Notes: a model not told the origin generated them from the letters alone. A stretch of 64,000 nucleotides of DNA from Elusimicrobiota bacterium (GCA_016715645.1 JADJZR010000008.1:48241-112240), one strand, 5' to 3'; counted from the first letter of the stretch, positions 5,472 to 64,000 are shown. Numbers and translations: made by a program.

Positions 5472-6994
5472 TGGACTCAAAAAAAATTATGGAGTTGGAT
5501 GCGTTGGCACTACAAGTTACGGACTGGAAACGGCAGGGCAAACGGGTGGTGCAGTGCCACGGCGTCTTTGACCTGTTGCACGTGGGGCATATTCGCCATT
5601 TAAATGAGGCCAAACGGTTCGGAGACTATTTAATCGTCACGCTGACCCCCGACCATCTCGTGAACAAAGGCCCCCATCGCCCTGCGTTTCCCCAACATCT
5701 CCGGGCAGAGGTGATGGCGGCTCTGGACGTGGTGGACGGTGTTGCGATCAATCGATGGCCCTCTGCGGTGGAATCCATCGGCCTTCTCAAACCAAACGTC
5801 TACGCCAAGGGGCCGGACTATCGAAAGGCGTCGGACGACGTCACGGGCGGAATTCTCCGGGAAGAAGAGGCCGTCCGCGCGGTGGGGGGCGAAATCCGTT
5901 TTACCGATGACGTGACGTTTAGTTCATCCAGCCTGGTCAATCTCCATTTAGATCTGCTTCCCCCGGAAGTCAAATCGTTCCTGGATGGTTTCCGTAAGAA
6001 ATACACAAAGGACGATATTTTCCGCTACATCGAAAGTCTTAAGGGTTTGCGGGTTGCGGTGGTGGGAGAAACCATTTTGGATGAGTATGTTTATTGTGAA
6101 GCCATGGGGAAATCTTCCAAAGAACCCACTTTGGCTGTACTTCGCCGGTCCCAGGAATTATTCGCGGGGGGGGCTTTGGCCATTGCCAACCATCTGGCGC
6201 AATTCTGCTCGGAAGTAGAGGTGATCACCTATTTGGGCGAACGGGATTCACAGGAAGAATTTGTCCGGAAAAGCCTGAATCCGCGCGTGCGGCTGACGGC
6301 CGTGAAAAAGCCGGGAGCCCCCACCATTGTCAAACGTCGCTACGTGGAGTCGTATCTTTTGTCAAAAATGTTTGAAGTCTATGATATGGACGACGAGGCC
6401 CTGACGGGCATTGCGGAAAATTCACTTTGCCAAGCAATGGAGTCTTCTTTTTCTAAAGTCGATGCGGTTCTTGTGGCCGATTATGGGCACGGTCTCATGA
6501 CGTCTAAGGCGGTGGCCCTGGCCTGTCAAAAGGCGCCTTTTCTGACGGTCAATACCCAGATCAACGCCGCCAACATCGGATTCCATGCCATTTCCCGCTA
6601 TCCCAAAGCGAACCATGTGTGTATCCAGGAATCTGAGCTGCGGTTGGAATACCGAAGTCGCCGGGGCCCCGTCAATGCCATGGTAACCGATCTGGAACGT
6701 CGTCTTGCGTGCGAGCGGATAACGGTGACCCGCGGCAGAGCGGGTATTCTGGTCCATGACCAGAAAGGTGATTTCCATCAATCTCCTGCCTTTGCCGTTA
6801 AGGTTTTGGATCGGATTGGGGCGGGAGACGCGGTTCTTGCGCTCACGTCCCTTTGCGCCGTGGCTGGCGTTCCGCCGGACGTTTCGGCGTTCCTGGGCAA
6901 TCTGGCGGGCGCCCAAGCGGTCACGATCATCGGCAACAAGACTTCCATTGATAAGGCGCTCCTTTTAAAAGCCGCCGAAGCCATGCTGAAATAA
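5471..6994 (+). CDS. hldE: Bifunctional heptose-7-phosphate kinase / heptose-1-phosphate nucleotidyltransferase (HldE/RfaE-like) with reversed domain order
   Basis: The N-terminus is a cytidylyltransferase-fold domain (VVQCHGVFDLLHVGHIRHLNEAKRFGDYLIVTLTPD, the RfaE domain-II signature). The C-terminus is a PfkB/ribokinase-like kinase (DRIGAGDAVLA). ATG at 5471 directly follows the upstream stop. Confidence 0.7.
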   Translation: MDSKKIMELDALALQVTDWKRQGKRVVQCHGVFDLLHVGHIRHLNEAKRFGDYLIVTLTPDHLVNKGPHRPAFPQHLRAEVMAALDVVDGVAINRWPSAVESIGLLKPNVYAKGPDYRKASDDVTGGILREEEAVRAVGGEIRFTDDVTFSSSSLVNLHLDLLPPEVKSFLDGFRKKYTKDDIFRYIESLKGLRVAVVGETILDEYVYCEAMGKSSKEPTLAVLRRSQELFAGGALAIANHLAQFCSEVEVITYLGERDSQEEFVRKSLNPRVRLTAVKKPGAPTIVKRRYVESYLLSKMFEVYDMDDEALTGIAENSLCQAMESSFSKVDAVLVADYGHGLMTSKAVALACQKAPFLTVNTQINAANIGFHAISRYPKANHVCIQESELRLEYRSRRGPVNAMVTDLERRLACERITVTRGRAGILVHDQKGDFHQSPAFAVKVLDRIGAGDAVLALTSLCAVAGVPPDVSAFLGNLAGAQAVTIIGNKTSIDKALLLKAAEAMLK

Positions 6995-7080
6995 GGAGCC
7001 CCTTTTTTTCCTTCCCCTCTTGGGGGAAGGTGCCCCAAAGGGTCGGATGAGGGGAGGAATTTTTTCTTTAAGGAGTTAAA

Positions 7081-50831: not shown

Positions 50832-52676
50832 TTGGACCTCTATTTTGCATTCGATATTGATGCGCTGAAGAACTTCCGCCATTGTGCCAACCCAACCCGT
50901 GTTCGTTTCTTTGGAGGGCAATGGTCGGTGTTGGATTACCTCCAACAGAGTGGGCTCCCGTTAGTTGATGAGGGCAATCTTCTGGATGTGGACACGGCAT
51001 GCACCCTCAATAAATTTGCCCATGCCTGAGTTAGAGACTGGTACATTGACCTGGAAGGAAATGATTTTACATTGTTCCGCGGAATTTCTCTGGGAAAACT
51101 TTTTGAGACTCTCTTGGGTGTGCACCATTTTGTCCAACTCTACAAATTTGATCTGATCGGCCGCGTCTTAATTACCCGAGAGTGTCCTTCGGTTGTCTGG
51201 ACGGATCGAGGTTGTCCAGAACTTTTAACATTAATTTTGGACCAGATTCAGAGTGAGTCACGACCAAGGTTCATTTTATCTCAGCAGGAGGGGGCGGGCC
51301 CAAGCACAAGGGCCATGCCAGTTAAGGGCCATCGTACGCTCAAAATTTTTACTTCCCATAGAGTTAAGAATGTTGTGGAAAGCATCTTCCACAAGGTCTA
51401 TAACTACGGCGTAGGAATCCTGAAATTTATTCAGCCCCGTATTCAACGACGGGTGATGGTTTCTTATTTCCATACGCTGTCCGGGTTGTTTGAGGCTTTG
51501 TTGTCTCCGCGCTGGCGTAAAGAATTTCACGTGACGCTTATTCAGAGGCCTGGGAAAAAAATAGTAGGTCGGTGTTTTCGAACCGGCTGGCCCATCTTGC
51601 AGTCCGATGTTTCGGGAGAAATAGCCAATTGCCCGCCGGCGCTAACCGTGGTCGATAAGACTCGCCTCCGCGAAATTCGGTCCCGTTGGGAGGAACTCAA
51701 TAAATCGTTAGACTACCGTCAGCGATTTATTTTTCGGGAAAAACCGCCCTGGAAAGCATTGGAAAATGTATTGGAAGAAGAGTTTTTCGAGCGATTGGAT
51801 CACACGGCCAATTGGCTGGCTTTCCTTGAAAATTATTTCACAAGGAATCGGTTGGGCGCGGTCATTCTCGCCGACGATTCCTTGCCAGTCTCTTTGTCAG
51901 TCGTTGTCGTCGCACGACGTTTTGGCGTTCCCAGTTTTGTTGTCCTTCATGGTTTGCTCAGTGACAATCAAAATCAAGGCATGCTCTATGGTGCTGGCGC
52001 AGACCACGTGGCTGTGTCCGGACCTGAAATCCGTTCGCAATTCGACGTTTCATCCAAGGGGGGGGAAAGGGTCTTAGTTAATAGTAGCCCTCTCTTCGAT
52101 CGATATGCGGCTCGGCAACATTCGTTTTCTCCTTCTACGGGTTTGGTTCGGCGTGTTTTGGCGCTGACCCATCCCTTCGACTTTGGCAACACACTCTCTT
52201 GTGTCGGTGATTCAGAGAGACATGTGTTGACGGTTGCGCGTTTATTGTCTGGGTTCCAAGAGGTAACAGGGACGATTAAGCTGCATCCCTCGGAGAATTT
52301 GGACTATTACCTGAAATTGATGAAGGGATTTCCGGGGATCAAGGTGGTTAAAAAAGGGGACATTGATAGATTCATCCTTGCCCACGATTTTGTTCTGGCC
52401 ACAACATCAACGGTATTGTTACAGGCAGCTTTGCTGGGGAGGAGAATTGTCTATGTTAACTTTTCGCGAGCAAATTACGATGATCCATTCAGAGAGGGAT
52501 GGGGGTTCCCTGTCGCTCGGACTCCAAGCGATTTGGAGAAAATTCTTCGGCGGGAGTTCTCTTCGGATCCTGGTCCCGCGCCGGATTACTCCGCTCTCAT
52601 TCAGGGTTTTGCTGGAAGAATCGATGGGGACGGCGCTAGACGATTTCTCGAAAAAGTGCGAAGCACTGTTCAATGA
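50832..52676 (+). CDS. GT-B-like hypothetical protein (putative glycosyl/pseudaminyl transferase) interrupted by one in-frame TGA at 51027-51029; alternatively a shorter gene starting at TTG 51072
   Basis: ORFs 50832..51029 and 51072..52676 share a frame and are separated only by the TGA. The C-terminal region (ILAHDFVLATTSTVLLQAALLGRRIVYVN) resembles a GT-B C-domain. Confidence 0.4.
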
Positions 52677-53716
52677 CTGACTTCAAGCGATTGCGGGTCG
52701 GGTATGTCCCCTACAGTCAATCCTTGGACTCCCCGGGGGACCGTCGCCGGTTCGTTTTCTATGCTGGACGGCGAGGGATTCCGTTTGAAGTAGCGGACCC
52801 ATCGAAGAAATATGATGTTGTCGTGGCGAGCGGGAACGCGGACCTGAGCCTGTGGACCCGTTACCAAGGATCGCCACTATTTTTCGATTACATCGATTCT
52901 TATTTCGCTGTTCCCTGTTTGAGCGTTCGTGGTCTTTTGCGCGGGGTGGCTCATTTTTCAACGGGTCGCAGCCGATGGCTTCAGTTGATCCATCGAAAAT
53001 CCCTGGAACGAATGTTCCAGAGGGCCGATGCGGTCATATGCGCCACCACCGAACAACGTCAACAGGTCCTGCCATATTGCCGAAATGTCCACGCCATTCT
53101 GGATTCCCATGCCCTCTATCATTCCACTAAGACCGATTACTCCGCGGGAGATATTTTCCGTCTTGTATGGGAGGGACAACCTCAGAATGTGGAACATTTT
53201 GGAGTGATCGCCCGCGCCTTGAAATCGGTGGGAAAAGATCAAAAACTGGAATTGAATCTCGTGACAAACCCTCGGTATTTTCGTTTTCTGGGGAAGGTTT
53301 GGCCCCGAGACACCATGAGAGTCGCGCGTTCTTTCTTTAATTCGATCCACTTCCATCATTGGGATGAAATAACTTCTCCGTCCTTCATGACATCCTGCGA
53401 TATGGCTGTGATCCCCCTTCCTCTGGATGACCCCTTTAACGCAGGGAAACCCGAGAACAAACTTCTCATTTTTTGGAAGATGGGAATCCCGGCAATAGTG
53501 TCAGCCACTCCGGCCTATTCCCGAGCGATGAAGGCCGCAGGGTTGTCCATGGACTGTCGGACGACGGAAGAGTGGATTATTGCTTTGGAAAAATTCATTA
53601 AAAATGGAGAGCTTCGCCGTCAAGCAGGTATTCAAGGGAAGGCCTTTGTCGAAACCCATCACAATGATGAAATTCTTGTAACCCAATGGGACGCTCTTTT
53701 CTCCTCAATATTATGA
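52673..53716 (+). CDS. Hypothetical GT-B-like protein, paralog 1 of a tandem pair (candidate glycosyltransferase)
   Basis: About 35-40% identity to the next ORF over the full length. The C-terminal LIFWKMGIPAIVSATPAYSRAM resembles the GT-B donor-binding region. Confidence 0.35.
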   Translation: MTDFKRLRVGYVPYSQSLDSPGDRRRFVFYAGRRGIPFEVADPSKKYDVVVASGNADLSLWTRYQGSPLFFDYIDSYFAVPCLSVRGLLRGVAHFSTGRSRWLQLIHRKSLERMFQRADAVICATTEQRQQVLPYCRNVHAILDSHALYHSTKTDYSAGDIFRLVWEGQPQNVEHFGVIARALKSVGKDQKLELNLVTNPRYFRFLGKVWPRDTMRVARSFFNSIHFHHWDEITSPSFMTSCDMAVIPLPLDDPFNAGKPENKLLIFWKMGIPAIVSATPAYSRAMKAAGLSMDCRTTEEWIIALEKFIKNGELRRQAGIQGKAFVETHHNDEILVTQWDALFSSIL

Positions 53717-54765
53717 AGAATATTTCCCACCCTCTTCTGTTAGGATATGTTCCCTATGATTCCTCCCTGACCCATCCGGCGGATCGTCGTCGCTTTTGTC
53801 GCTATGCCCAACGGAAAGGGCTCACCTTTGAAATCGCTGACCCGAAGAAAGCCTATGATGTGGTGATCGTATCGGAAGGCGGTGACTTAAGTGTTTGGAG
53901 CCGCTATAGGAAAGGGAAAGTTATTTTCGATATGGTGAACGCCTACCTCGACGTTCCTTTAACAGAGATCAAGGGCCTGTTCCGTGGGGTGGCCAAGTAT
54001 GTGACGGGCCAATGCCAGCGTTTGACGGTGAGTTACTGGAAGGCGGTTCAAGAGATGTGTGGTCATGCAGGGGCCGTCGTTTGCGGTTCTCCTGAGCAAG
54101 CCGATCGAATTCGTTCTTTCCAGGCGAACGTCCACCCCATATTGGATTATCATGGGATGTACGATAAAGTGAAAGAAAACTACGAGTCAGGAAGTCCGTT
54201 TCGGTTGGTCTGGGAAGGACTTCCTCATAATGTGGAGTTTTTTAGTGAAATTCGCAAGGCGCTCCTCTCTTTGCATCAAAAATTTCCTCTGTCGTTGCAT
54301 GTCATCACCGCGCCTCAATCGAAGAAATATTTGCGAAAGTTTTGGACCGTCGAAACAAAAGACATCCTCCCATCTTTCCCATTTCCCACCGTCCTTCACC
54401 CCTGGGATGAACGAACCGTTTCCGATATCATTCGTTCCTGCGATCTTGCCCTGATCCCACTCCCTGCGGGGAGCCCGTTCAATACGCTCAAGCCCGAAAA
54501 CAAACTGTTGATATTTTGGCGAATGGGGATGCCCACCGTCACCTCCGCCATTCCGTCTTACGTCCGGGTCATGGGTGAAGCGGGCCTGTCCATGTTTTGC
54601 CGGAGCAGTGAGCAGTGGCAACAGACCCTGGAGAAATTTATCATCAGCACCTCCGCCCGTTCGGCAGCCGGGGAAAAAGGGAAGAGGTATTTGGAAAGTC
54701 ATTGTGGTGAAGCCGGATGGCTGGAAAAATGGGACGCGGTCTTTGAATCCATCGGAAAGGTATAG
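53713..54765 (+). CDS. Hypothetical GT-B-like protein, paralog 2 of the tandem pair
   Basis: ATGA overlap start at 53713 (MKNISHPLLLGYVPYD), collinear with paralog 1 (LLIFWRMGMPTVTSAIPSYVRVM). Confidence 0.35.
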   Translation: MKNISHPLLLGYVPYDSSLTHPADRRRFCRYAQRKGLTFEIADPKKAYDVVIVSEGGDLSVWSRYRKGKVIFDMVNAYLDVPLTEIKGLFRGVAKYVTGQCQRLTVSYWKAVQEMCGHAGAVVCGSPEQADRIRSFQANVHPILDYHGMYDKVKENYESGSPFRLVWEGLPHNVEFFSEIRKALLSLHQKFPLSLHVITAPQSKKYLRKFWTVETKDILPSFPFPTVLHPWDERTVSDIIRSCDLALIPLPAGSPFNTLKPENKLLIFWRMGMPTVTSAIPSYVRVMGEAGLSMFCRSSEQWQQTLEKFIISTSARSAAGEKGKRYLESHCGEAGWLEKWDAVFESIGKV

Positions 54766-55405: not shown

Positions 55406-56395
55406 ATGTTCGTCAGACTCAATCGCAACTCTCAGGGCAAAGCCTACCTCCAATTCGTCCGCAGTTATCGAGAGGGGGGCAAGGTCCGTCAACAGATTCT
55501 CTTGACGTTGGGTCGGTTGGATGTTCTTCAATCGACGGGGCAAATTGACAACCTCGTGGCGGCGTTGGGACGATACGCCACGAGGGAAAAGCTGGTGGAC
55601 CTGAGCAAAGACATCTCCGTTGATCAGGTCTATTTTCTGGGTGCGGCGCACGTGGTGAGCCGGATGATGGAACGGCTGAAACTGACGGCGATGTTTACCC
55701 GATTGAGGGCGAAGCATCCGAAGATGAAGTTGCCCTGGGTAGGGATTATCACCGGGATGATTGTGAGTCGATTTATCGCGCCGTGCTCGAAACGGCGGCT
55801 GAACATGGAACAGTGGGGGCGAATCTATCCCGGGATTTTGGAAATGGAGGCGCCGCCCCTGAAAAGTTTTTACCGAGCGATGGACGTGTTGTGGAAACAT
55901 CGGGAGGACGTTGAGGGAGCCCTGTTTGACCGCGGGGGCCAGCGGGATCTTTTCAACCGCGGGTTGGACGTCGTTTTTTACGATTTAACGACACTGCGTT
56001 TTGAAAGCACCAACGCGACGGACGGGGAACTTCGACGGTTCGGGTATTCAAAAGAACACTGGAGCGATTGCACACAAGTGATCCTGGGCTTGTTGGTGGA
56101 CCGGGACGGGGTGCCGGTGGGCTACGAACTTTTCCCGGGCAACACGTATGAACCTCACAGCTTGCCGAAGATTCTGGAGAAGATGAAAACGAAGTATCAC
56201 ATCGAACGCGTGATCGTGGTGGCAGATCGGGGGTTGGTGACGCAGGAGAACGTCGGGGAACTGAGCAAGAACGGGATGGATTTCATTCTGGGGATGAAAT
56301 TGTGGTCGATGTCGGAGGCCGATCAGGACCAAGAAAATCCGATAAAACCGTTCCTTAGAGGGAAAAGGAGACCCGCTGCTTCACCAAATTGGTGA
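55406..56395 (+). CDS. IS1634-family transposase, N-terminal ~60% only (truncated/disrupted)
   Basis: MFVRLNRNSQGKAYLQFVRSYREGGKVRQQILLTLGRL is the hallmark IS1634 N-terminus. The ORF ends prematurely where the IS1380-like element begins. Confidence 0.65.
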   Translation: MFVRLNRNSQGKAYLQFVRSYREGGKVRQQILLTLGRLDVLQSTGQIDNLVAALGRYATREKLVDLSKDISVDQVYFLGAAHVVSRMMERLKLTAMFTRLRAKHPKMKLPWVGIITGMIVSRFIAPCSKRRLNMEQWGRIYPGILEMEAPPLKSFYRAMDVLWKHREDVEGALFDRGGQRDLFNRGLDVVFYDLTTLRFESTNATDGELRRFGYSKEHWSDCTQVILGLLVDRDGVPVGYELFPGNTYEPHSLPKILEKMKTKYHIERVIVVADRGLVTQENVGELSKNGMDFILGMKLWSMSEADQDQENPIKPFLRGKRRPAASPNW

Positions 56396-56619
56396 AAAAT
56401 GAAGGGCTCTTTATAGGGGGCCCTGAAAGCGGGAATTCGTGTGGTTTTTTGGGGACCCCGGTAAAAGGTAAAGAGGTGGGGGCTCTCCCATGTGTGGGAG
56501 GGTGGGGTCTGAAGGGCCGCAAGAGGAGGAGGGGTGGGGGCACCTTGGCCAGCGGGAGAGGTCAAAATCAAATAAAATGCCTCGTCGAAAGACGGACATC
56601 TTCACGACGAGGCGAAACC

Positions 56620-57924
56620 ATGATAACACGTGTGCTTGAAAAATACAAAGTATCGATGACGAATCTAGCGGTGACGTCGTATGCGGGGTTGCCGCTGTTG
56701 TTGGGAATGGCGAAGAGCTTGGGTTTGGAAGAGAGGCTGAACGGTTTACCCGTGAAGGAAAGGGCGCGAGGCTATCGACCGGCGGAAACGATCTTCAGCT
56801 TAATGGGGTTGTTGCAATCGGGTGGAGTGGCGTTGGACGACATGGATCTGTTAAATGGCGACGAGGGATTGAGGGCGCTTCTAGGGAAATTCCCGGCGGC
56901 GAATACGGTGGGCGAATTGCTGAGACGGTTCGGGAATTCGGCGATACACCGGTTGGGTCAAATCCAATTGGAAACGGCGGTGAAGGTGATTCGATCGGCG
57001 GGGTTGAAATCGGTGGTTGTGGACGTGGACTCGTTTTTTGTTGAGTCACAGAAGTCGGATGCGGTGATGAACTATGAAGGGAAAACGGGATACAATCCCG
57101 TGGCGGTGACGTGCGCAGAGCTGAAGATGCCGATGGCGGGTTTGTTTCGTCCCGGGAACGCATCGGCGATGGCGAACGTGGCGGGCCTGTTGGAGCGAGT
57201 GTTGGAGGCGGTGAAAGGGATCGGCGTGCGAGTGCGAAGCGACAGTGCGGGTTTTCAGGCGGATGTGGTGCGGGTGTTGAGGGCGAAGGGGGCGCGGTTC
57301 ACGATTACGGCGCGCAAAGACGCGGCGGTTCTCGAGACGATCCGGGGGATAAAGCCAGAGTGTTGGCGTAAGTATGAGGGTGGGGCGTGGGAGAACCGGG
57401 AAACGGAGATTGCGCAGACGGTTCATGCGTTCGGGGCGGAGGATCTTGCGGCGCATCGAATGATTGTGATCCGATGGAAAAAAACGAATCCGGAATTGTT
57501 TGACAAAGAGCCCTATGAATATCATGCGGTGATCACGAACATGGATGACTGGTCGGGGGAAATGGTTCTTCAATTTCATCGAACACGCCAGGATGGATCG
57601 GAAAACGTGAACAAGGAATTGAAGGGTGGGATTGGTTTATCCAAGTTACCCTGTCGGGCGATGAAAGCGAACGCGGCGTATTTTCAGGTGGCTCTTCTGG
57701 CGTATACGGTGTTTGCGGCGACAAAACATTTGGCGTTGCCCAAGAGCTGGGGATCCTTGACGATCGAGACGGTGAGATCACGGCTGATTCGACTGGCGGG
57801 GGTCGTGGCGAAGAGGGCCCGGTATGTCTGGTTGAAGATCGGGAAGGGGTATCCGTATATGAAGTGTTTTGAGGACGCACGGTGGCGGATTATAGGGCTA
57901 TCGGTTGAAATAGCGACGGGATAG
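56620..57924 (+). CDS. IS1380-family DDE transposase
   Basis: ATG at 56620 (MITRVLEKYKV). YNPVAVTCAELKMPMAGLFRPGNASAMANVAGLLERVLEAVKGIGVRVRSDSAGFQADVV is an IS1380-like catalytic region. Confidence 0.65.
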   Translation: MITRVLEKYKVSMTNLAVTSYAGLPLLLGMAKSLGLEERLNGLPVKERARGYRPAETIFSLMGLLQSGGVALDDMDLLNGDEGLRALLGKFPAANTVGELLRRFGNSAIHRLGQIQLETAVKVIRSAGLKSVVVDVDSFFVESQKSDAVMNYEGKTGYNPVAVTCAELKMPMAGLFRPGNASAMANVAGLLERVLEAVKGIGVRVRSDSAGFQADVVRVLRAKGARFTITARKDAAVLETIRGIKPECWRKYEGGAWENRETEIAQTVHAFGAEDLAAHRMIVIRWKKTNPELFDKEPYEYHAVITNMDDWSGEMVLQFHRTRQDGSENVNKELKGGIGLSKLPCRAMKANAAYFQVALLAYTVFAATKHLALPKSWGSLTIETVRSRLIRLAGVVAKRARYVWLKIGKGYPYMKCFEDARWRIIGLSVEIATG

Positions 57925-59057: not shown

Positions 59058-60191
59058 TTGAACGTGTTGATCGCGCCAAACGCGTTTAAGGGGTCCCTGA
59101 CCGCCACACAGGCGGCACGGGCCATGGCCGTCGGCGTTCGCCGGGCGGGCGGTGCGGCCGTTTTGTTGCCGTTGGCCGACGGAGGGGATGGGACGTTGGA
59201 TGTCCTTCAAAATCCGCTTGGATTAAAAATGAGACGATCCAGGGTGATGGATCCTGTGGGTCGGCCGGTGACGGCGCGGTGGGGATATAATCCAAAAACC
59301 CTATGGGCGGTGGTTGAAATGGCCCGGGCTTCCGGTCTGGCCCTGTTAAAACATCACGAACGGAATCCTCTGAAAACAACCAGTTTCGGCACGGGGCAAC
59401 TGATCCGCGCGGCGGTTCGGGCTGGGGCCAGGAAAATATTTCTGGGGCTCGGAGGAAGCGCGACCGTGGATGGGGGGCTTGGCCTTCTCCAGGCGTTGGG
59501 GGCCACGGTCACAATTAGAAAAAACGGACAGACGGTGTATCTCGACCGGCCCGTCACCGGGGAGGATTTAGAGACGCTCGAAGAAGTTAATCCTTCTCCT
59601 GTGATGCGATTCATGAAAGGTGTTCAACTTCGCGTTCTCTGCGATGTGCGTAACTCACTTCTGGGCCCCCGGGGGGCCGCGCGGGCGTTCGGGCCTCAAA
59701 AAGGAGCGACGCTAAAAGGGGTGGTTCGGCTGGAGCGAGGGCTCAAACGAATGGCGGCGTTGGCTCGGGCGGAGGGGAAAGATATTTCAAAAATCCCTGG
59801 AACCGGTGCGGCGGGGGGAGCGGCGGGGGGGCTCCTGGGATTTACGAACGCGCGGCTTGAAAGGGGGACGGACACCCTTTTTCGCCTCAAGGGTTTGGAA
59901 AAGCAGATTCAGCGGGCGGATGTCGTGATGACCGGGGAAGGCCGGGTGGACCGAACGTCCTGGGAAGGCAAGGCGTTGGGAGAACTCGTTCGCCTCTGCC
60001 GCCGACACAAAAAACCTTTGATTGTCCTGGCGGGGGAAATCGGTCCCGGCGGCCCTCGCCGGGGGGTGGACGTCGTAGGAGTGGGAACTCCCCGAATGAG
60101 CCGGAAAGAGAAAATGCACAAAGCCAAACAGCTTATCGCGAAAGCCGCGGCGGGTTGTTGGAAGATCCAACTGAAAACAACGAATTTATAG
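59058..60191 (+). CDS. Glycerate kinase (GlxK/GarK family)
   Basis: MNVLIAPNAFKGSLTA...LPLADGGDGTLDVL... matches the glycerate kinase I family end to end. Confidence 0.8.
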   Translation: MNVLIAPNAFKGSLTATQAARAMAVGVRRAGGAAVLLPLADGGDGTLDVLQNPLGLKMRRSRVMDPVGRPVTARWGYNPKTLWAVVEMARASGLALLKHHERNPLKTTSFGTGQLIRAAVRAGARKIFLGLGGSATVDGGLGLLQALGATVTIRKNGQTVYLDRPVTGEDLETLEEVNPSPVMRFMKGVQLRVLCDVRNSLLGPRGAARAFGPQKGATLKGVVRLERGLKRMAALARAEGKDISKIPGTGAAGGAAGGLLGFTNARLERGTDTLFRLKGLEKQIQRADVVMTGEGRVDRTSWEGKALGELVRLCRRHKKPLIVLAGEIGPGGPRRGVDVVGVGTPRMSRKEKMHKAKQLIAKAAAGCWKIQLKTTNL

Positions 60192-61370
60192 TTCAGCCAG
60201 TATGTCTTTTGTTTGGTGCCAGGGGAGAGCGACGCCGTGGCGGAACGTCTGTGGGCGTGGAACGCGACAGATCAAATATCCCCCCTTTGCTTTTTCCTGG
60301 GTTTGGAAAGCCGCAAGACCGTCGAAATCGGATTCCCGAGGGGTTTCGGTCCATTTAATCTCGATGGGAACCCGGCGGTTTTCTTTCTCAATAACAAGGT
60401 CAACTTCTTCTCCCCGTTTCGTGCGCCAATAAGTGAGCCGGGCACCCGGCTGAACTGTTGCGATGAGTTCGAGGATAACGGCGTGTTCAAACAGAGTTCC
60501 CTTTTGAAGAGGGAGAATTCCTGGAGAGTGTTCAAGGCCGGCGGCGGCGTTTCGGACCCCCATATCGAAAAAGTAGTAACGTGGTTTTCGTAGAGTGGAG
60601 GCCCGGTGAGCGCCAAAGGCGGGAATTCGATGAAGGATGAGGCTATCTTCCAAAACGGTGTAATACTGGGCCAGGGTCGTATGGGACACTCCCACGTCCG
60701 TTGCGATTTTTGAGAAGTTGGGGCTTTGCCCCGATTCCAAGGCGGCAAGGCGTAGAAAAGCGGCGAACGGCGGGAGCCGCCGCACGGCGGCTTCCTGGCG
60801 AATTTCTTCCTCTAAGTACAGGGCCGTGTAAGACGTCAAATAATCGCGCCGGACGGCAACGTCCGGTTCGCGCAGGATGCCAGGCAATCCTCCGTAAAGC
60901 ATTCGCTCTTCCAGGAGCGGCTGTCGGTCTTCTTTGGAGGCGAGCATCCCCCGCTCTTCCCAGGTCAACGGATGAAGATGTCGCAGATGGATCCTTCCCG
61001 GAAGCCAGTTCTTCGCGCCGTGACGCATTTTCCGCGCCGAAGACCCCGATGCCACCAACACAATCCGTTTTTCATCCAATAGATATTGCAGAACATCCAT
61101 CAAAGCGGGATTTTTTTGGATCTCGTCTATAAAGACGACCTGCGGGGGGCCTCTCTTCCCCGCTTCCCGGACCAACACTTCGGGGTCCTGTTCCAGCCGT
61201 GTTCGGACGGAAGGGAGTTGCAACGGATACTCCAGCGCTCCCGGGAACGCGGAAAGAACCTCCTTGATGAGCGTGGATTTCCCCGTCTGGCGGGGGCCGA
61301 GCAGGAGAGTCGACCGTCCGTGTCGAAGGTCTTCGGCCAAAGGGGCCGTGAGTAACCGTTTGAAACTCAT
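60186..61370 (-). CDS. AAA+ ATPase with C-terminal DUF4143 domain
   Basis: Start taken at MSFKRLL (61370). Walker A GPRQTGKST and Walker B VFIDEIQ. The C-terminal half is typical of the DUF4143 family. Confidence 0.65.
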   Translation of the reverse strand: MSFKRLLTAPLAEDLRHGRSTLLLGPRQTGKSTLIKEVLSAFPGALEYPLQLPSVRTRLEQDPEVLVREAGKRGPPQVVFIDEIQKNPALMDVLQYLLDEKRIVLVASGSSARKMRHGAKNWLPGRIHLRHLHPLTWEERGMLASKEDRQPLLEERMLYGGLPGILREPDVAVRRDYLTSYTALYLEEEIRQEAAVRRLPPFAAFLRLAALESGQSPNFSKIATDVGVSHTTLAQYYTVLEDSLILHRIPAFGAHRASTLRKPRYYFFDMGVRNAAAGLEHSPGILPLQKGTLFEHAVILELIATVQPGARLTYWRTKRGEEVDLVIEKENRRVPIEIKWTETPRESDFDGLAAFQTQEKAKGGYLICRVPRPQTFRHGVALPWHQTKDILAEL

Positions 61371-61483
61371 GATTTCAAAAAGTATACAATTTTGCAATAA
61401 CAACTTGCAAATGGTTCCATCGTTTGGTCGACCGGGAGGAAAATGGTAAATTGGGTGTCCAATGATCCTCCGAGGCAATTTTC

Positions 61484-63028
61484 GTGATTAAGGCCGAAGA
61501 AATTCCGAAACCGACGGATGCGGCCGGGCTGTTGCGGCGGGAACCCCGGGAAGGGTTTCGACGGGGAGCTCACCTTCGGTTGGCGGACCTGGCCGACGGG
61601 GGGGTGACGCGGTTTTTGTCCGCGGAGGCCGCGCCGGTCTATTTGACGATTCTTTACGCCCTGCTCTTGTTTCGCCGTCGGCACGAACTGGATCCCCTGC
61701 ACACCGTCCTTTACGACGACATTCGGCCCGTGGTGGAAAGCCAGACCGCCGCGCCCTATTCCCTGGACGCGTTCGCGTCCGACGTGAACCAGCTGGTGGA
61801 GTGGGGCTGTTTAAAACGGGAAGTGGAAGCCGCCCGCATTCGCGGCTACCGCGACCGAAGCCGGGACCATTTTCGATACACTCTCACCTCCGACACAGTT
61901 TCTTTTCTGGAATGGCTGGAAGGCCGGTTGGATCACCGTGTTCACGGCACGCTCCAGGACGGCCGCGATCTCCTGCTGGATCTAACCCAACGGTTGAACG
62001 AAGCGGCCAAAATTGTCCGTCGGTTGCGGGAGGGCGGTGACGAGGAAGACGCGCGCCGGTTGATTTATTTGCTGGAATCGGCCGACAACGAAATGGACGC
62101 GATCGGGCGGGACCTCACCGTGTTGCGAGCCGAGATGCACGCCTACGCCCGGGGGTTGGCCACCGCGGACGATTTGCGCCGGGTGGTGGACGGGCTGGAA
62201 CGATACGTGGCCCGTTACGTGCGCCGGTTGCGGGAGTTGGGCGGGCGGGCTTACATGGCGGCGCGGCGGCTGACGCGTAAAACGGCGCTGGACGTTCTTC
62301 GCCGGGCCCAGGAAAAAATCGCCGCTGACAGTCTGGGGGGCCGCTCCACCCGACGGGACACGGCGGAACTCCTTCAAAACGCCATTGTGCCGTTTTTGCG
62401 TCCCAACGGACGGCTGTTGGACACCTGTTCGCGGGTGGAAGAAATGGCGGCCCAGGTGGTTCAGCGCATCCACCGACGGTTGCGGGACCTGGAACTGCGC
62501 AATTTCCGGCTGGAAGAAATTGGCGCGCGGCTTAAAGAGATGGCCGCGATGGAGGAAACCGATCGTCGGCCGGGCCTTTTCCTGCGACGGCTGACGGCGC
62601 TTGTTCATGTCCCGTTGGATCCCAACTTACAGTCCGAAGGGAAATCCCGGTTGCCCCTGGTGCGGGCTTTCCGGGAATGGACCGACCGGGGCGCGCCCGA
62701 ACCCCTGCGCCGGCCGACGGCCCGGCCCGAGGACGCGTTGACACAAGACGATGACCGTCGGGCGCGTCTGCGGGCGTATGTGCACAACACTCTGTTGCGG
62801 GGCGCGTGGTCGGGCCGGTTGTCCAACGCCCGGCTGGAGAGCGGGGAAAATCCGTTCGAGTGGTTGGCCGTGGCCAAGGCGGGATTTTTAAGCCAGGGCC
62901 GCGACCTGGACCGGGCCGGTGTCCATATCCAAGACGAGGCGGGTTCGGCCCATCTGTCGGCCGACGGCCGCCATGTGGCCACCGTCGATCACACCCTGGT
63001 GGTGATGGAAAAATCCCATGGAACCTGA
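61484..63028 (+). CDS. jetA: Wadjet/condensin-like subunit A (JetA/MksF-like; DUF3375-type) - tentative
   Basis: 514-aa Arg/Leu-rich helical protein (GTG start). It is the first gene of an operon whose third gene has an SMC/JetC-type Walker-A N-terminus. Assignment is by size, order and composition. Confidence 0.4.
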   Translation: MIKAEEIPKPTDAAGLLRREPREGFRRGAHLRLADLADGGVTRFLSAEAAPVYLTILYALLLFRRRHELDPLHTVLYDDIRPVVESQTAAPYSLDAFASDVNQLVEWGCLKREVEAARIRGYRDRSRDHFRYTLTSDTVSFLEWLEGRLDHRVHGTLQDGRDLLLDLTQRLNEAAKIVRRLREGGDEEDARRLIYLLESADNEMDAIGRDLTVLRAEMHAYARGLATADDLRRVVDGLERYVARYVRRLRELGGRAYMAARRLTRKTALDVLRRAQEKIAADSLGGRSTRRDTAELLQNAIVPFLRPNGRLLDTCSRVEEMAAQVVQRIHRRLRDLELRNFRLEEIGARLKEMAAMEETDRRPGLFLRRLTALVHVPLDPNLQSEGKSRLPLVRAFREWTDRGAPEPLRRPTARPEDALTQDDDRRARLRAYVHNTLLRGAWSGRLSNARLESGENPFEWLAVAKAGFLSQGRDLDRAGVHIQDEAGSAHLSADGRHVATVDHTLVVMEKSHGT

Positions 63029-63710
63029 ATCCGCCGAACTCCCCGAATCCGCCTCGCTTCAGCGGCTCAACCAGGATCTTGTGCGCCGCGTGATGAACGT
63101 GTTGACCGAAGCCCCGTTTTTTTATCTGGAAGACGATCGGGCCCTGTTTCAATACGCCCGGCGCCATCGCGCCGCGTTTCGGGATTTCGCGAAATATTAT
63201 TTCGGCTGGGACCTGGTGATCGACGCGCGGTGCGCCCGCCTGGTCAAACGGGGGGACCGGGAAAATCCCGAACTCAAAAGCGCTCACGTGGACACGTTTC
63301 ATCTTCCGCGCCGAAACCTGTCCTTGGTGTTTTTAATTCTGCTGGAACTGTTTGAAATCGAACAACGTCGAGTCAATTGGCAATACGAGCGGGACGCGTA
63401 TTTGCGTTTTTTCCACAACGACTTTTTTGAATACGCCAAAACGCGGTTTCGGGCCCTGCTGGGGGACCGCGCGCCGGACGACAGCGCTCTGCGTCGGGAC
63501 ATCCAGGAGACATGGACAATTTTGATCAAATACCGGTTCATCCGGCCCATTCCCCCCACGCCGGCGGAACTGTTGGTGATGGACCGCAAACAAGGCGAGC
63601 TGTATGAGTTTTTGCCCGGTGTGACCTGTTACGACTCCAACGTGTTGCGGGACGCCGATTGGGTAGCGCGGCTAAAAGTTCAACCGGAAGAGGAGCCCCC
63701 TTCGTCATGA
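63018..63710 (+). CDS. jetB: Wadjet/condensin-like subunit B (JetB/MksE-like; DUF4194-type) - tentative
   Basis: 230-aa acidic protein overlapping both neighbours. Matches JetB in size and position. Confidence 0.4.
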   Translation: MEPESAELPESASLQRLNQDLVRRVMNVLTEAPFFYLEDDRALFQYARRHRAAFRDFAKYYFGWDLVIDARCARLVKRGDRENPELKSAHVDTFHLPRRNLSLVFLILLELFEIEQRRVNWQYERDAYLRFFHNDFFEYAKTRFRALLGDRAPDDSALRRDIQETWTILIKYRFIRPIPPTPAELLVMDRKQGELYEFLPGVTCYDSNVLRDADWVARLKVQPEEEPPSS

Positions 63711-64000
63711 CCACTTACCGAATCCGCTCGGTGCGGCTCATCAACTTCCACAATTTCATCGACGTGGAGATCCCGGTCCAAGGCCACCTCTTTTTGGTGG
63801 GCGACAACGCCTCGGGTAAAACCACCGTTTTGGACGCGGTCCAATGGGCCTTGTCGGGGGGACAAGATTTGGAGTTCAACGCCGCGGCCCAACTGTGGGG
63901 CGTGAAACAGGATGGCCGGACCCTGCGCGGCGCGGTTTTGCGCACGGACTTGGAAAAAGGCGACCAACGCACCGGCCGAACCATCACCTATGCCGCCGTC
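63707..64000 (+). CDS. jetC: SMC-like ATPase N-terminus (JetC/MksB-like); 3' end lies outside the window
   Basis: MTTYRIRSVRLINFHNFIDVEIPVQGHLFLVGDNASGKTTVLDAVQWAL is an SMC/Rad50-type Walker A head. Confidence 0.55.
   Translation, partial: MTTYRIRSVRLINFHNFIDVEIPVQGHLFLVGDNASGKTTVLDAVQWALSGGQDLEFNAAAQLWGVKQDGRTLRGAVLRTDLEKGDQRTGRTITYAAV

What the first reader, a model, noticed from the sequence alone, without database searches (positions are those of the whole stretch)
60186..64000. Wadjet/MksBEF-like three-gene condensin operon (JetA-JetB-JetC N-terminus), divergent from a DUF4143 AAA ATPase
Genes of 514 aa and 230 aa are followed by an SMC-type Walker-A N-terminus (NFHNF...VGDNASGKTTVLDA), with overlapping stops and starts. 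This matches the JetABC(D) anti-plasmid system layout. The window ends inside jetC, so jetD cannot be seen. Its location next to an addiction module and IS elements supports a defense island.
Basis: inference. Interest (0 to 1): 0.5.

Follow-up and report, generated by a model that had tools for sequence, protein, structure and literature searches.

The report
Divergent Wadjet anti-plasmid SMC operon
The end of the window carries the first three genes (jetA, jetB, start of jetC) of a Wadjet plasmid-cutting defence system. It is a known kind of system, but this lineage combines type II-like small subunits with a short, single-copy JetB and a type I-sized motor protein.

Summary
Three co-oriented, overlapping genes lie at 61484-64000, divergent from an AAA_14/DUF4143 ATPase. 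JetA (514 aa) hits DUF2397 and JetB (230 aa) hits DUF2398. Predicted folds match N. vireti JetA/JetB best, then MukF/MukE and type I JetA/JetB.

A contig 99.3% identical over the shared 2.6 kb extends jetC to 1134 aa, with intact Walker A, signature and Walker B motifs. All 11 distinct relatives whose sequence continues past jetC carry a Toprim JetD, adjacent in ten. In the two closest lineages a SWIM-SNF2 helicase gene follows jetC, and in the one contig that continues, jetD follows that helicase.

So this is a Wadjet system. It most likely restricts circular plasmids by loop extrusion followed by JetD cleavage; that mechanism is inferred from studied Wadjets.

It fits no canonical type: JetB is single-lobe rather than the type II tandem KITE, JetC is type I-sized, and the curated type II models are missed. 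The same architecture recurs across phyla, for example in Pontiella.

The locus is a variable island with a toxin-antitoxin pair, IS elements and small repeats. Interest is modest: a sub-type variant of a known system.

The parts
61484..63028 (+). jetA: kleisin subunit (MukF/JetA class), 514 aa, GTG start
   Evidence: PF09660 DUF2397 E=1.2e-11, residues 42-340 on model positions 1-293 of 483. PADLOC JetA2 E=1.2e-7. TIGR02677 scores only 32 bits against a cutoff of 166. The AF2 model has pLDDT 73. Its best PDB fold hits are N. vireti Wadjet-II JetA 9qe0_E (E=2.4e-7), MukF 9gm7_C (1.4e-5) and E. coli JetA 8as8_E (4e-3). The C-terminal winged helix matches 9qe1_J with TMt 0.78.
63018..63710 (+). 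jetB: KITE subunit (MukE/JetB class), 230 aa, single lobe of two winged-helix domains; its start overlaps the end of jetA by 11 nt
   Evidence: PF09661 DUF2398 E=2.2e-10, but only model positions 3-87 of 363. DUF4194 is sub-threshold. PADLOC JetB2 E=1.2e-11 and JetB1 E=4e-7. The AF2 model has pLDDT 82.8 and pTM 0.77. Fold hits: nvJetB 9qe0_D (E=1.3e-6, TMt 0.35, so about half of the tandem KITE), MukE 9gmb_E (2.9e-5), PA14 JetB 8dk1_E (TMt 0.70) and E. coli JetB 8as8_C. All 16 database homologues are 227-251 aa.
63707..64000 (+). jetC, 5' end (98 of 1134 codons): N-terminal half of the SMC/MukB-like ATPase head with Walker A GDNASGKT; ATGA overlap with the jetB stop
   Evidence: AAA_29 E=1.8e-13 and PADLOC JetC1 E=8e-17. 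The 98 residues are 100% identical to the start of the 1134-aa JetC of L001. That protein hits JetC1 at 4.9e-56, JetC2 at 1.1e-31 and SbcC_Walker_B at 1e-12. It carries Walker A at residue 32, the GSGGE signature at 1030 and Walker B LLFDE at 1059-1066.
61371..61483 (.). 113-bp divergent intergenic region between the DUF4143 gene and jetA; presumed to hold the jet promoter and ribosome-binding site (inferred)
   Evidence: Read from the sequence. The consensus scan found one promoter-like site on the minus strand only, no more than shuffled sequence gives. L001 and L002 carry a 220-bp insertion here with a REP-like palindrome that the window lacks.
60186..61370 (-). Neighbour, not shown to belong to the system: AAA_14 + DUF4143 ATPase, 394 aa from the ATG at 61370
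   Evidence: DUF4143 E=5e-34 and AAA_14 E=2e-19. PADLOC candidate PDC-S01 E=3e-62. It is present divergently upstream of jetA in L005, L012, L013 and L014. It is replaced by Fic in L017, a transposase in L007 and HEPN/NTase pairs in L009.

Best explanation
The region is the promoter-proximal part of a Wadjet (JetABCD / MksBEFG-type) defence operon.

Shown here:
- JetC is an SMC-family ABC ATPase.
- JetA is a MukF-like kleisin.
- JetB is a MukE-like KITE with two winged-helix domains.
- The three genes overlap head to tail, which suggests translational coupling.

Inferred from the biochemistry and structures of type I and type II Wadjets:
- A JetC dimer is closed by JetA, which also binds a JetB dimer.
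- Two such motor units pair through the JetA N-terminus.
- The complex loads on DNA and extrudes loops using ATP.
- On a small circular DNA, extrusion runs to completion and stalls.
- The stalled complex recruits a dimeric Toprim nuclease, JetD, which cuts the plasmid. The large chromosome is spared.

The jetD gene lies beyond the window end. In this strain it most probably sits downstream of a SWIM-SNF2 helicase gene that has been inserted between jetC and jetD.

The system belongs to a distinct Wadjet lineage. Its kleisin, KITE and JetD sequences are closest to type II. Its architecture (single KITE of about 230 aa, JetC of about 1130-1190 aa) is like type I.
For: Family hits:
- JetA to DUF2397/JetA2, JetB to DUF2398/JetB2 (also JetB1), JetC to JetC1 and JetC2.

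Folds:
- The JetB and JetA models match Wadjet-II JetB/JetA first, then MukE/MukF and type I JetB/JetA.
- The JetB profile's only PDB sequence hit of note is nvJetB, E=0.017. Our WHD1 aligns to its residues 15-68 and WHD2 to 134-172, with a weaker echo on lobe 2.

JetC:
- It is complete at 1134 aa in L001, which is 99.3% identical to the window over 2582 bp.
- All ATPase motifs are present.

JetD:
- Of the 14 distinct jet loci examined, 11 continue past the end of jetC and all 11 encode a JetD of 391-447 aa.
- These are L005, L007, L009, L012, L013, L014, L017, L025, L030, L036 and L037.
- The other three (the window, L001 and L011) end before that point.
- The JetD proteins carry JetD_C/DUF2399 domains.
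- Across six aligned sequences the Toprim-type motifs TxEN(E/D)A and HWGDTDLAG are invariant.

SNF2 insertion:
- L017 (JetC 90% identical) reads jetA-jetB-jetC-SNF2-jetD.
- The SNF2 fragment of L001 is 92% nt identical to that of L017.

Mechanism:
- It rests on Roisne-Hamelin et al. 2025 (bioRxiv 10.1101/2025.03.10.642339) and the review PMC10586767.
Against: - jetD is not in the window (tblastn), and nothing beyond position 64000 can be seen.
- The one near-identical contig ends inside the SNF2 gene. JetD in this strain is therefore inferred from a relative whose JetC is 90% identical.
- Matches to curated type II models are weak: TIGR02677 scores 32 bits against a cutoff of 166, and TIGR02678 scores 24 against 125.
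- No PDB chain is hit by single-sequence search.
- Close relatives show decay. L012 lacks jetB and parts of jetA and jetC. jetA in L017 appears frameshifted. Activity in any given strain is not assured.
- No experiment exists for this lineage.
Confidence: 0.85

Rival explanations
1. This is a nuclease-free MksBEF-type condensin that organises the chromosome rather than a defence system. JetD has been lost or uncoupled in this strain.
For: - No jetD lies in the window or directly after jetC in L001.
- In L005 the operon sits about 5 kb from dnaA, dnaN and recF.
- The literature proposes that MksBEF arose from Wadjet by loss of JetD.
Against: - Every related locus that continues past jetC retains jetD with intact Toprim motifs, including L017, which has the SNF2 insertion.
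- The operon's position and content vary between strains that are 88-99% identical.
- Its GC content is 0.60-0.62 in the close relatives and the window, against flanks of 0.50-0.59.
- It diverges faster than its flanks: jetABC 88-91% and jetD 81%, against 95-96% for the dsbA-M48 block in L014 versus L017.
- These features suit an accessory defence locus better than a housekeeping condensin.
Confidence: 0.05
2. The SWIM-SNF2 helicase inserted between jetC and jetD is a functional accessory. It would make this a five-gene Wadjet variant in which a second DNA translocase helps or regulates JetABC/JetD.
For: - It is on the same strand, 63-180 nt after jetC and 244 nt before jetD.
- It is present in two lineages whose jetABC differ by 12%.
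- Its helicase core resembles defence-associated SNF2 proteins: ZorD E=5e-58 and DpdE E=7e-55.
Against: - It is absent from all other jet loci examined, including L014, whose JetC is 96% identical.
- It is flanked by REP-like palindromes, consistent with insertion or recombination.
- The PADLOC hits cover only the generic helicase core.
- SWIM-SNF2 helicases are common stand-alone bacterial genes (general knowledge, not tested here).
Confidence: 0.08
3. The operon in this strain is a decaying, non-functional remnant of a Wadjet system.
For: - Sister strains carry a MITE between jetA and jetB (L014) and a MITE-associated deletion of jetB (L012).
- jetA is split in L017.
- A gene is inserted before jetD.
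- IS elements lie nearby in the window.
Against: - In the window, jetA, jetB and the visible part of jetC are intact and overlapping, with no MITE.
- JetC in L001 keeps all catalytic motifs.
- JetB is 100% conserved in four independent assemblies.
Confidence: 0.1
4. It is a different SMC-like ATPase system, such as Lamassu LmuB, RecN/RecF, SbcCD or Gabija/Septu-type AAA_15/21 ATPases.
For: The 98-residue N-terminus alone also hits RecF, PtuA, MAD3, GajA and LmuB models at E=1e-7 to 1e-11.
Against: - These hits cover only the shared Walker A region.
- The full protein is 1134 aa and matches JetC models end to end.
- It is preceded by a kleisin and a KITE, which those systems lack.
Confidence: 0.01

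Closest known systems
Wadjet type II (JetABCD of Neobacillus vireti; PDB 9QE0/9QE1; Pfam DUF2397, DUF2398, DUF3323+DUF2399; TIGR02677-02680)
   Same: - The kleisin and KITE fall in the same Pfam families (DUF2397, DUF2398).
- JetD in relatives carries DUF2399 with a faint DUF3323 signal.
- The best structural matches of the JetA and JetB models are nvJetA and nvJetB.
- The gene order is jetA-B-C-D.
   Different: - JetB is 230 aa with two winged helices. nvJetB is 388 aa with four (a tandem KITE).
- Only the first ~87 positions of the 363-position DUF2398 model are matched.
- JetC is 1134 aa, against 1355-1365 for the PADLOC JetC2 models, and scores higher on JetC1.
- The TIGR02677 and TIGR02678 cutoffs are missed by a wide margin.
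Wadjet type I (E. coli GF4-3 and P. aeruginosa PA14 JetABCD; PDB 8AS8, 8DK1; Pfam DUF3375, DUF4194, DUF3584, DUF3322+JetD_C)
   Same: - Overall architecture: a single KITE of about 200-240 aa and a JetC of about 1100-1150 aa.
- The best JetC model hit is JetC1 at 4.9e-56.
- The JetB model superposes on PA14 JetB with TMt 0.70.
- The presumed extrusion-cleavage mechanism is the same.
   Different: - JetA does not hit DUF3375.
- JetB is below the DUF4194 cutoff.
- There is no sequence-level PDB hit.
- In relatives, the JetD N-terminal region shows no DUF3322.
MukBEF / MksBEF condensins
   Same: - The same three-subunit SMC-kleisin-KITE logic.
- MukE and MukF are among the top fold matches.
- There is a weak MksE Pfam signal in relatives' JetB.
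   Different: - Relatives of this operon always carry the JetD nuclease gene.
- JetC is much shorter than MukB (general knowledge).
- The locus is strain-variable and island-like.
MksBEFG (Corynebacterium glutamicum) / EptABCD (Mycobacterium smegmatis)
   Same: These are four-gene SMC-plus-Toprim-nuclease plasmid defence systems, that is, other names for Wadjet.
   Different: No direct sequence comparison was made here.

Membership tests
Wadjet (JetABCD) family | SMC/MukB-like ABC ATPase (JetC) with N- and C-terminal head halves separated by a long coiled coil and hinge | tested here: met
   The window holds the Walker A half. The full 1134-aa protein from L001 (100% identical over the 98 shared residues) matches JetC1 and JetC2 models at both ends. 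It carries Walker A, signature and Walker B motifs.
Wadjet (JetABCD) family | MukF-like kleisin (JetA) encoded upstream | tested here: met
   PF09660 is above its cutoff. The fold matches nvJetA, MukF and ecJetA, and the C-terminal WHD matches with TMt 0.78. Global TM-scores are low because the model is an extended multi-domain chain with pTM 0.39.
Wadjet (JetABCD) family | MukE-like KITE (JetB) with tandem winged-helix domains | tested here: met
   PF09661 is above its cutoff. The confident model (pLDDT 82.8) matches nvJetB, MukE, PA14 JetB and ecJetB at E=1e-6 to 1e-4.
Wadjet (JetABCD) family | Toprim nuclease JetD encoded in the same operon | tested here: inconclusive
   jetD is not in the window, and the window ends in jetC. 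It is present in all 11 related loci that continue past jetC, with invariant E and DxD motifs in the six sequences aligned. In the closest lineage with enough sequence (L017) it follows an inserted SNF2 gene.
Wadjet type I | JetA = DUF3375 and JetB = DUF4194 | tested here: not met
   There is no DUF3375 hit. DUF4194 scores 16.4 bits against a cutoff of 32.7.
Wadjet type II | JetA = DUF2397 and JetB = DUF2398 (the domain-based definition) | tested here: met
   Both are above the Pfam gathering scores. The matches are partial, and the curated TIGR02677 and TIGR02678 cutoffs are not reached.
Wadjet type II | Tandem KITE: one JetB of about 380-460 aa with four winged-helix domains (Roisne-Hamelin et al. 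2025) | tested here: not met
   JetB is 230 aa and modelled with two winged helices. All homologues are 220-251 aa. PADLOC JetB2 models are 384-462 positions long. Feature as described in the paper.
Wadjet type II | Long JetC (about 1360 aa) with extended elbow-distal coiled coil | tested here: not met
   JetC is 1134-1189 aa across the clade. JetC2 models are 1355-1365 positions and JetC1 models 1097-1149. Coiled-coil geometry itself was not modelled.
Wadjet type III | Match to type III subunit models | tested here: not met
   No JetA3, JetB3 or JetC3 appears among the listed PADLOC hits. There is only a marginal JetD3 hit (E=0.0018) for the JetD of L005. For JetC only the best 25 of 55 families were shown.
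MksBEF/MukBEF condensin (nuclease-free) | Absence of a JetD/MksG nuclease gene | tested here: inconclusive
   This cannot be seen for the window's genome. It is not the case in any relative with enough sequence.

The most novel reading that the evidence does not exclude
This clade may be a fourth, so far unnamed Wadjet lineage.
- Its features: DUF2397-like kleisin, single-lobe DUF2398-like KITE, type I-sized JetC and DUF2399-type JetD.
- It is found from Elusimicrobia-like MAGs to Pontiella and Deltaproteobacteria.
- It could preserve the unduplicated KITE from which the type II tandem KITE arose by gene duplication and fusion. That would give a natural 'before' state for that event.
- In this species a SWIM-SNF2 translocase has additionally been recruited between jetC and jetD.
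Probability: 0.3. Interest if true: 0.5.

Novelty: new variant of a known kind. Interest (0 to 1): 0.35.

Why it matters
Wadjet is one of the few defence systems that recognise foreign DNA by shape and size through an SMC loop-extrusion motor. Structures or biochemistry exist only for type I and one type II system.

A lineage whose small subunits are type II-like in sequence, but whose KITE is a single lobe and whose SMC is short, bears on how the type II tandem KITE and long coiled coil evolved. It could also serve as a comparison point for which features are needed for extrusion-cleavage.

For annotation, it shows that domain-based typing (DUF2397/DUF2398 = type II) groups architecturally different systems.

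For the window itself the result is mostly ordinary: a known defence system in a variable island.

Tried and rejected
- **Single-sequence PDB searches.** Searches with JetA, JetB, JetC and JetD found nothing relevant. The JetA profile also found nothing. Only fold comparison and the JetB profile reached Wadjet structures.
- **Genome scan.** The scan of species-representative genomes with the JetA profile returned one locus, an Elusimicrobia MAG. The host species could not be named.
- **Exact look-up of the window's JetA.** It is not on record. JetB was found, and that gave the extending contigs.
- **'jetD has been lost'.** I first read L001 (jetC followed by SNF2) this way. I dropped that reading when L017 showed jetD after the SNF2 gene.
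- **JetA 'fusion' proteins.** Five proteins of about 950-970 aa looked like fusions, possibly to the DUF4143 ATPase or to JetD. Their N-terminal ~450 aa has no Pfam hit, no similarity to any locus protein, and an Ala/Gly/Arg/Asp/Glu-rich composition typical of shadow ORFs in high-GC DNA. I treat them as start-codon miscalls.
- **DUF4143 ATPase as a component.** I considered this because it co-travels with jetABCD in three different genomic contexts, and in L005 as a paralogue only 33% identical. I left it as a neighbour because the loci of L007, L009, L017, L036 and L037 lack it.
- **Promoter/terminator scan.** Nothing above shuffled expectation.
- **Rfam.** No RNA family in the window.
Full report
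**1. Observation**

The last 2.5 kb of the window holds three co-oriented genes.
- jetA lies at 61484-63028 (514 aa, GTG start).
- jetB lies at 63018-63710 (230 aa). Its ATG is 11 nt inside the end of jetA.
- A third gene starts at 63707 in an ATGA stop/start overlap and runs off the window after 98 codons. These contain the Walker A loop GDNASGKT.

Divergently upstream, after a 113-bp spacer, lies an AAA_14 + DUF4143 ATPase at 60186-61370. It is 394 aa from the ATG at 61370; the 430-aa ORF that the tool lists starts at an upstream TTG.

**2. What the proteins are**

Pfam results:
- JetA falls in DUF2397, E=1.2e-11 (44.5 bits, cutoff 28.5).
- JetB falls in DUF2398, E=2.2e-10 (40.6 bits, cutoff 26.9).
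- DUF4194 is sub-threshold at 16.4 bits against 32.7.

PADLOC agrees: JetA2 at 1.2e-7, JetB2 at 1.2e-11, JetB1 at 4e-7, and the JetC N-terminus on JetC1 at 8e-17. The curated NCBIfam type II models are missed by far: TIGR02677 scores 32 bits against a cutoff of 166, and TIGR02678 scores 24 against 125. The proteins are therefore distant from canonical type II.

I modelled JetB and JetA from alignments of database homologues.
- The JetB model is confident, with pLDDT 82.8 and pTM 0.77.
- It shows two winged-helix domains.
- Its best PDB matches are N. vireti Wadjet-II JetB (9qe0_D, E=1.3e-6), MukE (9gmb_E, 3euh), P. aeruginosa JetB (8dk1_E, TMt 0.70) and E. coli JetB (8as8_C).
- The JetA model has pLDDT 73.
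- It matches nvJetA (9qe0_E, E=2.4e-7), MukF (9gm7_C, 7nz2) and E. coli JetA (8as8_E). Its C-terminal winged helix superposes on 9qe1_J with TMt 0.78.
- At sequence level only the JetB profile reaches a solved structure, nvJetB at E=0.017. It aligns to lobe 1 of that tandem protein, with a weak echo on lobe 2.

**3. Extending beyond the window**

The exact JetB sequence occurs on four public contigs.
- L001 (GCA_018060765.1, 7.7 kb) is 99.3% identical to the window over 2582 bp.
- Its JetC is 100% identical over the 98 shared residues.
- In L001 jetC is 1134 codons long.
- The protein matches JetC1 (4.9e-56) and JetC2 (1.1e-31) models at both ends and has SbcC_Walker_B.
- It carries Walker A at residue 32, the GSGGE signature at 1030 and Walker B LLFDE at 1059-1066.

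After jetC, L001 shows a 180-bp spacer and then a SWIM + SNF2 helicase gene, where the contig ends. No JetD-like sequence exists in the window or in L001.

**4. Where JetD is**

Across the 14 distinct jet loci examined, 11 continue past the end of jetC and all 11 encode a JetD of 391-447 aa. The other three (the window, L001 and L011) end before that point.

| Locus | Relation to the window's system | Arrangement |
|---|---|---|
| L005 | JetA 84% identical | jetD directly after jetC |
| L013 | JetA 80% | jetD directly after jetC |
| L007 | JetA 71% | jetD directly after jetC |
| L009 | JetA 54% | jetD directly after jetC |
| L014 | JetC 96% | jetD directly after jetC |
| L012 | 92-94% nt | jetD directly after jetC |
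| L025, L030 | JetA 28-35% | jetD directly after jetC |
| L037 | Pontiella sulfatireligans | jetD directly after jetC |
| L036 | Deltaproteobacteria MAG | jetD adjacent but divergent |
| L017 | JetC 90% | jetD after the SNF2 gene (section 4 text) |

These JetD proteins carry JetD_C and DUF2399, with a faint DUF3323 signal. In an alignment of six of them the Toprim-type motifs TxEN(E/D)A and HWGDTDLAG are invariant.

The key locus is L017, a 331-kb JGI contig. It reads jetA-jetB-jetC, then a 936-aa SWIM-SNF2-Helicase_C gene, then jetD (401 aa, motifs intact), then dsbA. The SNF2 fragment of L001 is 92% nt identical to that of L017.

The window's strain therefore most probably has jetABC-SNF2-jetD. 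I put this at about 0.8, given the 99.3% identity to L001. This is inference, since nothing beyond position 64000 can be seen.

**5. A distinct Wadjet lineage**

The clade shows one constant architecture, from 99% down to 28% JetA identity and across phyla. Members include Elusimicrobia-labelled MAGs, Kiritimatiellota including the isolate Pontiella, and Deltaproteobacteria. Myxococcales and Rokubacteria appear among the JetC hits.

| Subunit | Size | Family signal |
|---|---|---|
| JetA | about 510-545 aa | DUF2397 |
| JetB | 220-251 aa | only the N-terminal part of DUF2398, sometimes with weak MksE/DUF4194 signals |
| JetC | 1134-1189 aa | JetC1 above JetC2 |
| JetD | 391-447 aa | JetD_C, DUF2399 |

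Canonical type II differs, according to the only structural study (bioRxiv 10.1101/2025.03.10.642339).
- Its JetB is a tandem KITE of 388 aa with four winged helices.
- Its JetC has a longer coiled coil.
- That paper states that 'most or all' type II KITE genes are large and proposes that the tandem KITE arose by duplication and fusion.
- PADLOC's JetB2 models are 384-462 positions and its JetC2 models 1355-1365.

The system here is therefore type II-like in sequence family but type I-like in architecture. It fails the type I test on domains and the type II test on tandem KITE and JetC length.

A profile search of 1.84 billion cluster representatives with the JetA alignment found only 172 proteins at E<=1e-3. 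The JetA sub-family is small and well separated.

**6. Mechanism**

Shown:
- The subunit identities.
- Intact ATPase motifs.
- Overlapping genes, which suggests translational coupling.
- Intact Toprim motifs in relatives' JetD.

Inferred from type I and II work:
- JetC dimers closed by JetA and decorated with a JetB dimer form motor units.
- Two motor units pair through the JetA N-terminus.
- ATP-driven loop extrusion runs to completion only on small circular DNA.
- The stalled complex then licenses the JetD dimer to cleave.

That JetB acts as a homodimer here, rather than as a tandem monomer as in type II, is inferred from its size and fold.

**7. Context**

- In the window, a Phd/YefM-PIN pair, two DDE transposase ORFs and a glycerate kinase gene precede the DUF4143 gene.
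- Comparing strains that are 88-99% identical, the segment between a polysaccharide-biosynthesis cluster and a conserved dsbA-mauE-degT-M48 block varies:
  - GlyK / DUF4143 / jetABCD in L014.
  - GlyK / Fic / jetABC-SNF2-jetD in L017.
  - Fic / PLD / DUF4143 / jetABCD / GlyK in L013.
- The jet genes have a higher GC content than their surroundings: 0.60-0.62 in the close relatives and the window, against flanks of 0.50-0.59.
- They also diverge faster than the flanks. Between L014 and L017, jetABC is 88-91% and jetD 81% identical, against 95-96% for the downstream housekeeping block.

The DUF4143 ATPase (PADLOC candidate PDC-S01, E=3e-62) travels with jetABCD in three different contexts. In L005 it does so as a paralogue only 33% identical to the window's. 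Other loci lack it. I treat it as a neighbour whose linkage is unproven.

**8. Decay and repeats**

- A 266-bp MITE with 33-bp terminal inverted repeats sits between jetA and jetB in L014.
- In L012 the same element marks a deletion that removes the 3' end of jetA, all of jetB and the 5' end of jetC, equivalent to window 62751-63787.
- A 45-nt REP-like palindrome flanks the SNF2 gene in L001 and L017. It also lies in a 220-bp insertion upstream of jetA in L001 and L002 that the window lacks, and at window 7007-7054.
- jetA in L017 appears frameshifted.
- The window's own jetA, jetB and jetC 5' end are intact.

**9. Verdict**

- The system is a Wadjet and is not categorically new. It belongs to an apparently unnamed lineage that mixes type II sequence families with a single KITE and a short SMC. 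In this species it carries a gene inserted between jetC and jetD.
- Interest is modest at 0.35. It bears on SMC and Wadjet evolution and on defence-system typing but does not overturn anything.

Noticed in passing
L001 6335-7655; L017 13468-16278 (beyond the window end): A 936-aa SWIM + SNF2 + Helicase_C gene sits between jetC and jetD in the two closest lineages. It is absent from all other jet loci examined, including one whose JetC is 96% identical.
   Followed up: partly
L014 9040-9310; L012 11265-11556: A 266-bp MITE with 33-bp terminal inverted repeats lies between jetA and jetB. In L012 it marks a deletion equivalent to window 62751-63787, which removes the 3' end of jetA, all of jetB and the 5' end of jetC.
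   Followed up: partly
window 7007-7054; L001 ~300-347 and 6247-6291; L017 16349-16393: A 45-nt REP-like palindrome (CCTTCTCCTCTTGGGAGAAGGTGGCCCGGAGGGCCGGATGAGGG) recurs in intergenic spacers. It flanks the SNF2 gene and lies in a 220-bp insertion upstream of jetA that the window lacks.
   Followed up: partly
window 60186-61370 (-); L005 8448-9590: A DUF4143 ATPase (PADLOC candidate PDC-S01) lies divergently upstream of jetA in three different genomic contexts. In L005 it is a paralogue only 33% identical to the window's, while JetA is 84% identical. This could be recurrent linkage or coincidence.
   Followed up: partly
window 55406-57924: Two adjacent DDE transposase ORFs. The first (329 aa, DDE_Tnp_1) looks truncated. 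The second (511 aa, DDE_Tnp_1_4) is 89% nt identical to a copy at a different position in L017.
   Followed up: no
window 51072-54765: Three consecutive ORFs of 534, 347 and 359 aa have no Pfam or PADLOC hit. They lie at the end of a long co-oriented, lower-GC (0.47-0.50) gene cluster that resembles the polysaccharide-biosynthesis cluster of related contigs.
   Followed up: no
P0158-P0163, P0191: JetA homologues called as proteins of 733-972 aa have an Ala/Gly/Arg/Asp/Glu-rich N-terminal ~450 aa with no family hit. These are probably shadow-ORF start miscalls in high-GC genomes rather than fusions.
   Followed up: partly
L028 8231-9040; L026 840-1649: JetD-like genes with no detectable jetA, jetB or jetC in the 8 kb upstream (L028). 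They may be orphan JetD genes or a different gene order.
   Followed up: no
L014 versus L017: Between two strains the jet genes are much more diverged (jetABC 88-91%, jetD 81% nt) than the flanking dsbA-mauE-degT-M48 block (95-96%). This suggests fast evolution or allele exchange at the defence locus.
   Followed up: no
L005 1-9590: In one relative the DUF4143-jetABCD block lies next to uvrA and about 5 kb from dnaA, dnaN and recF, that is, near the replication origin.
   Followed up: no
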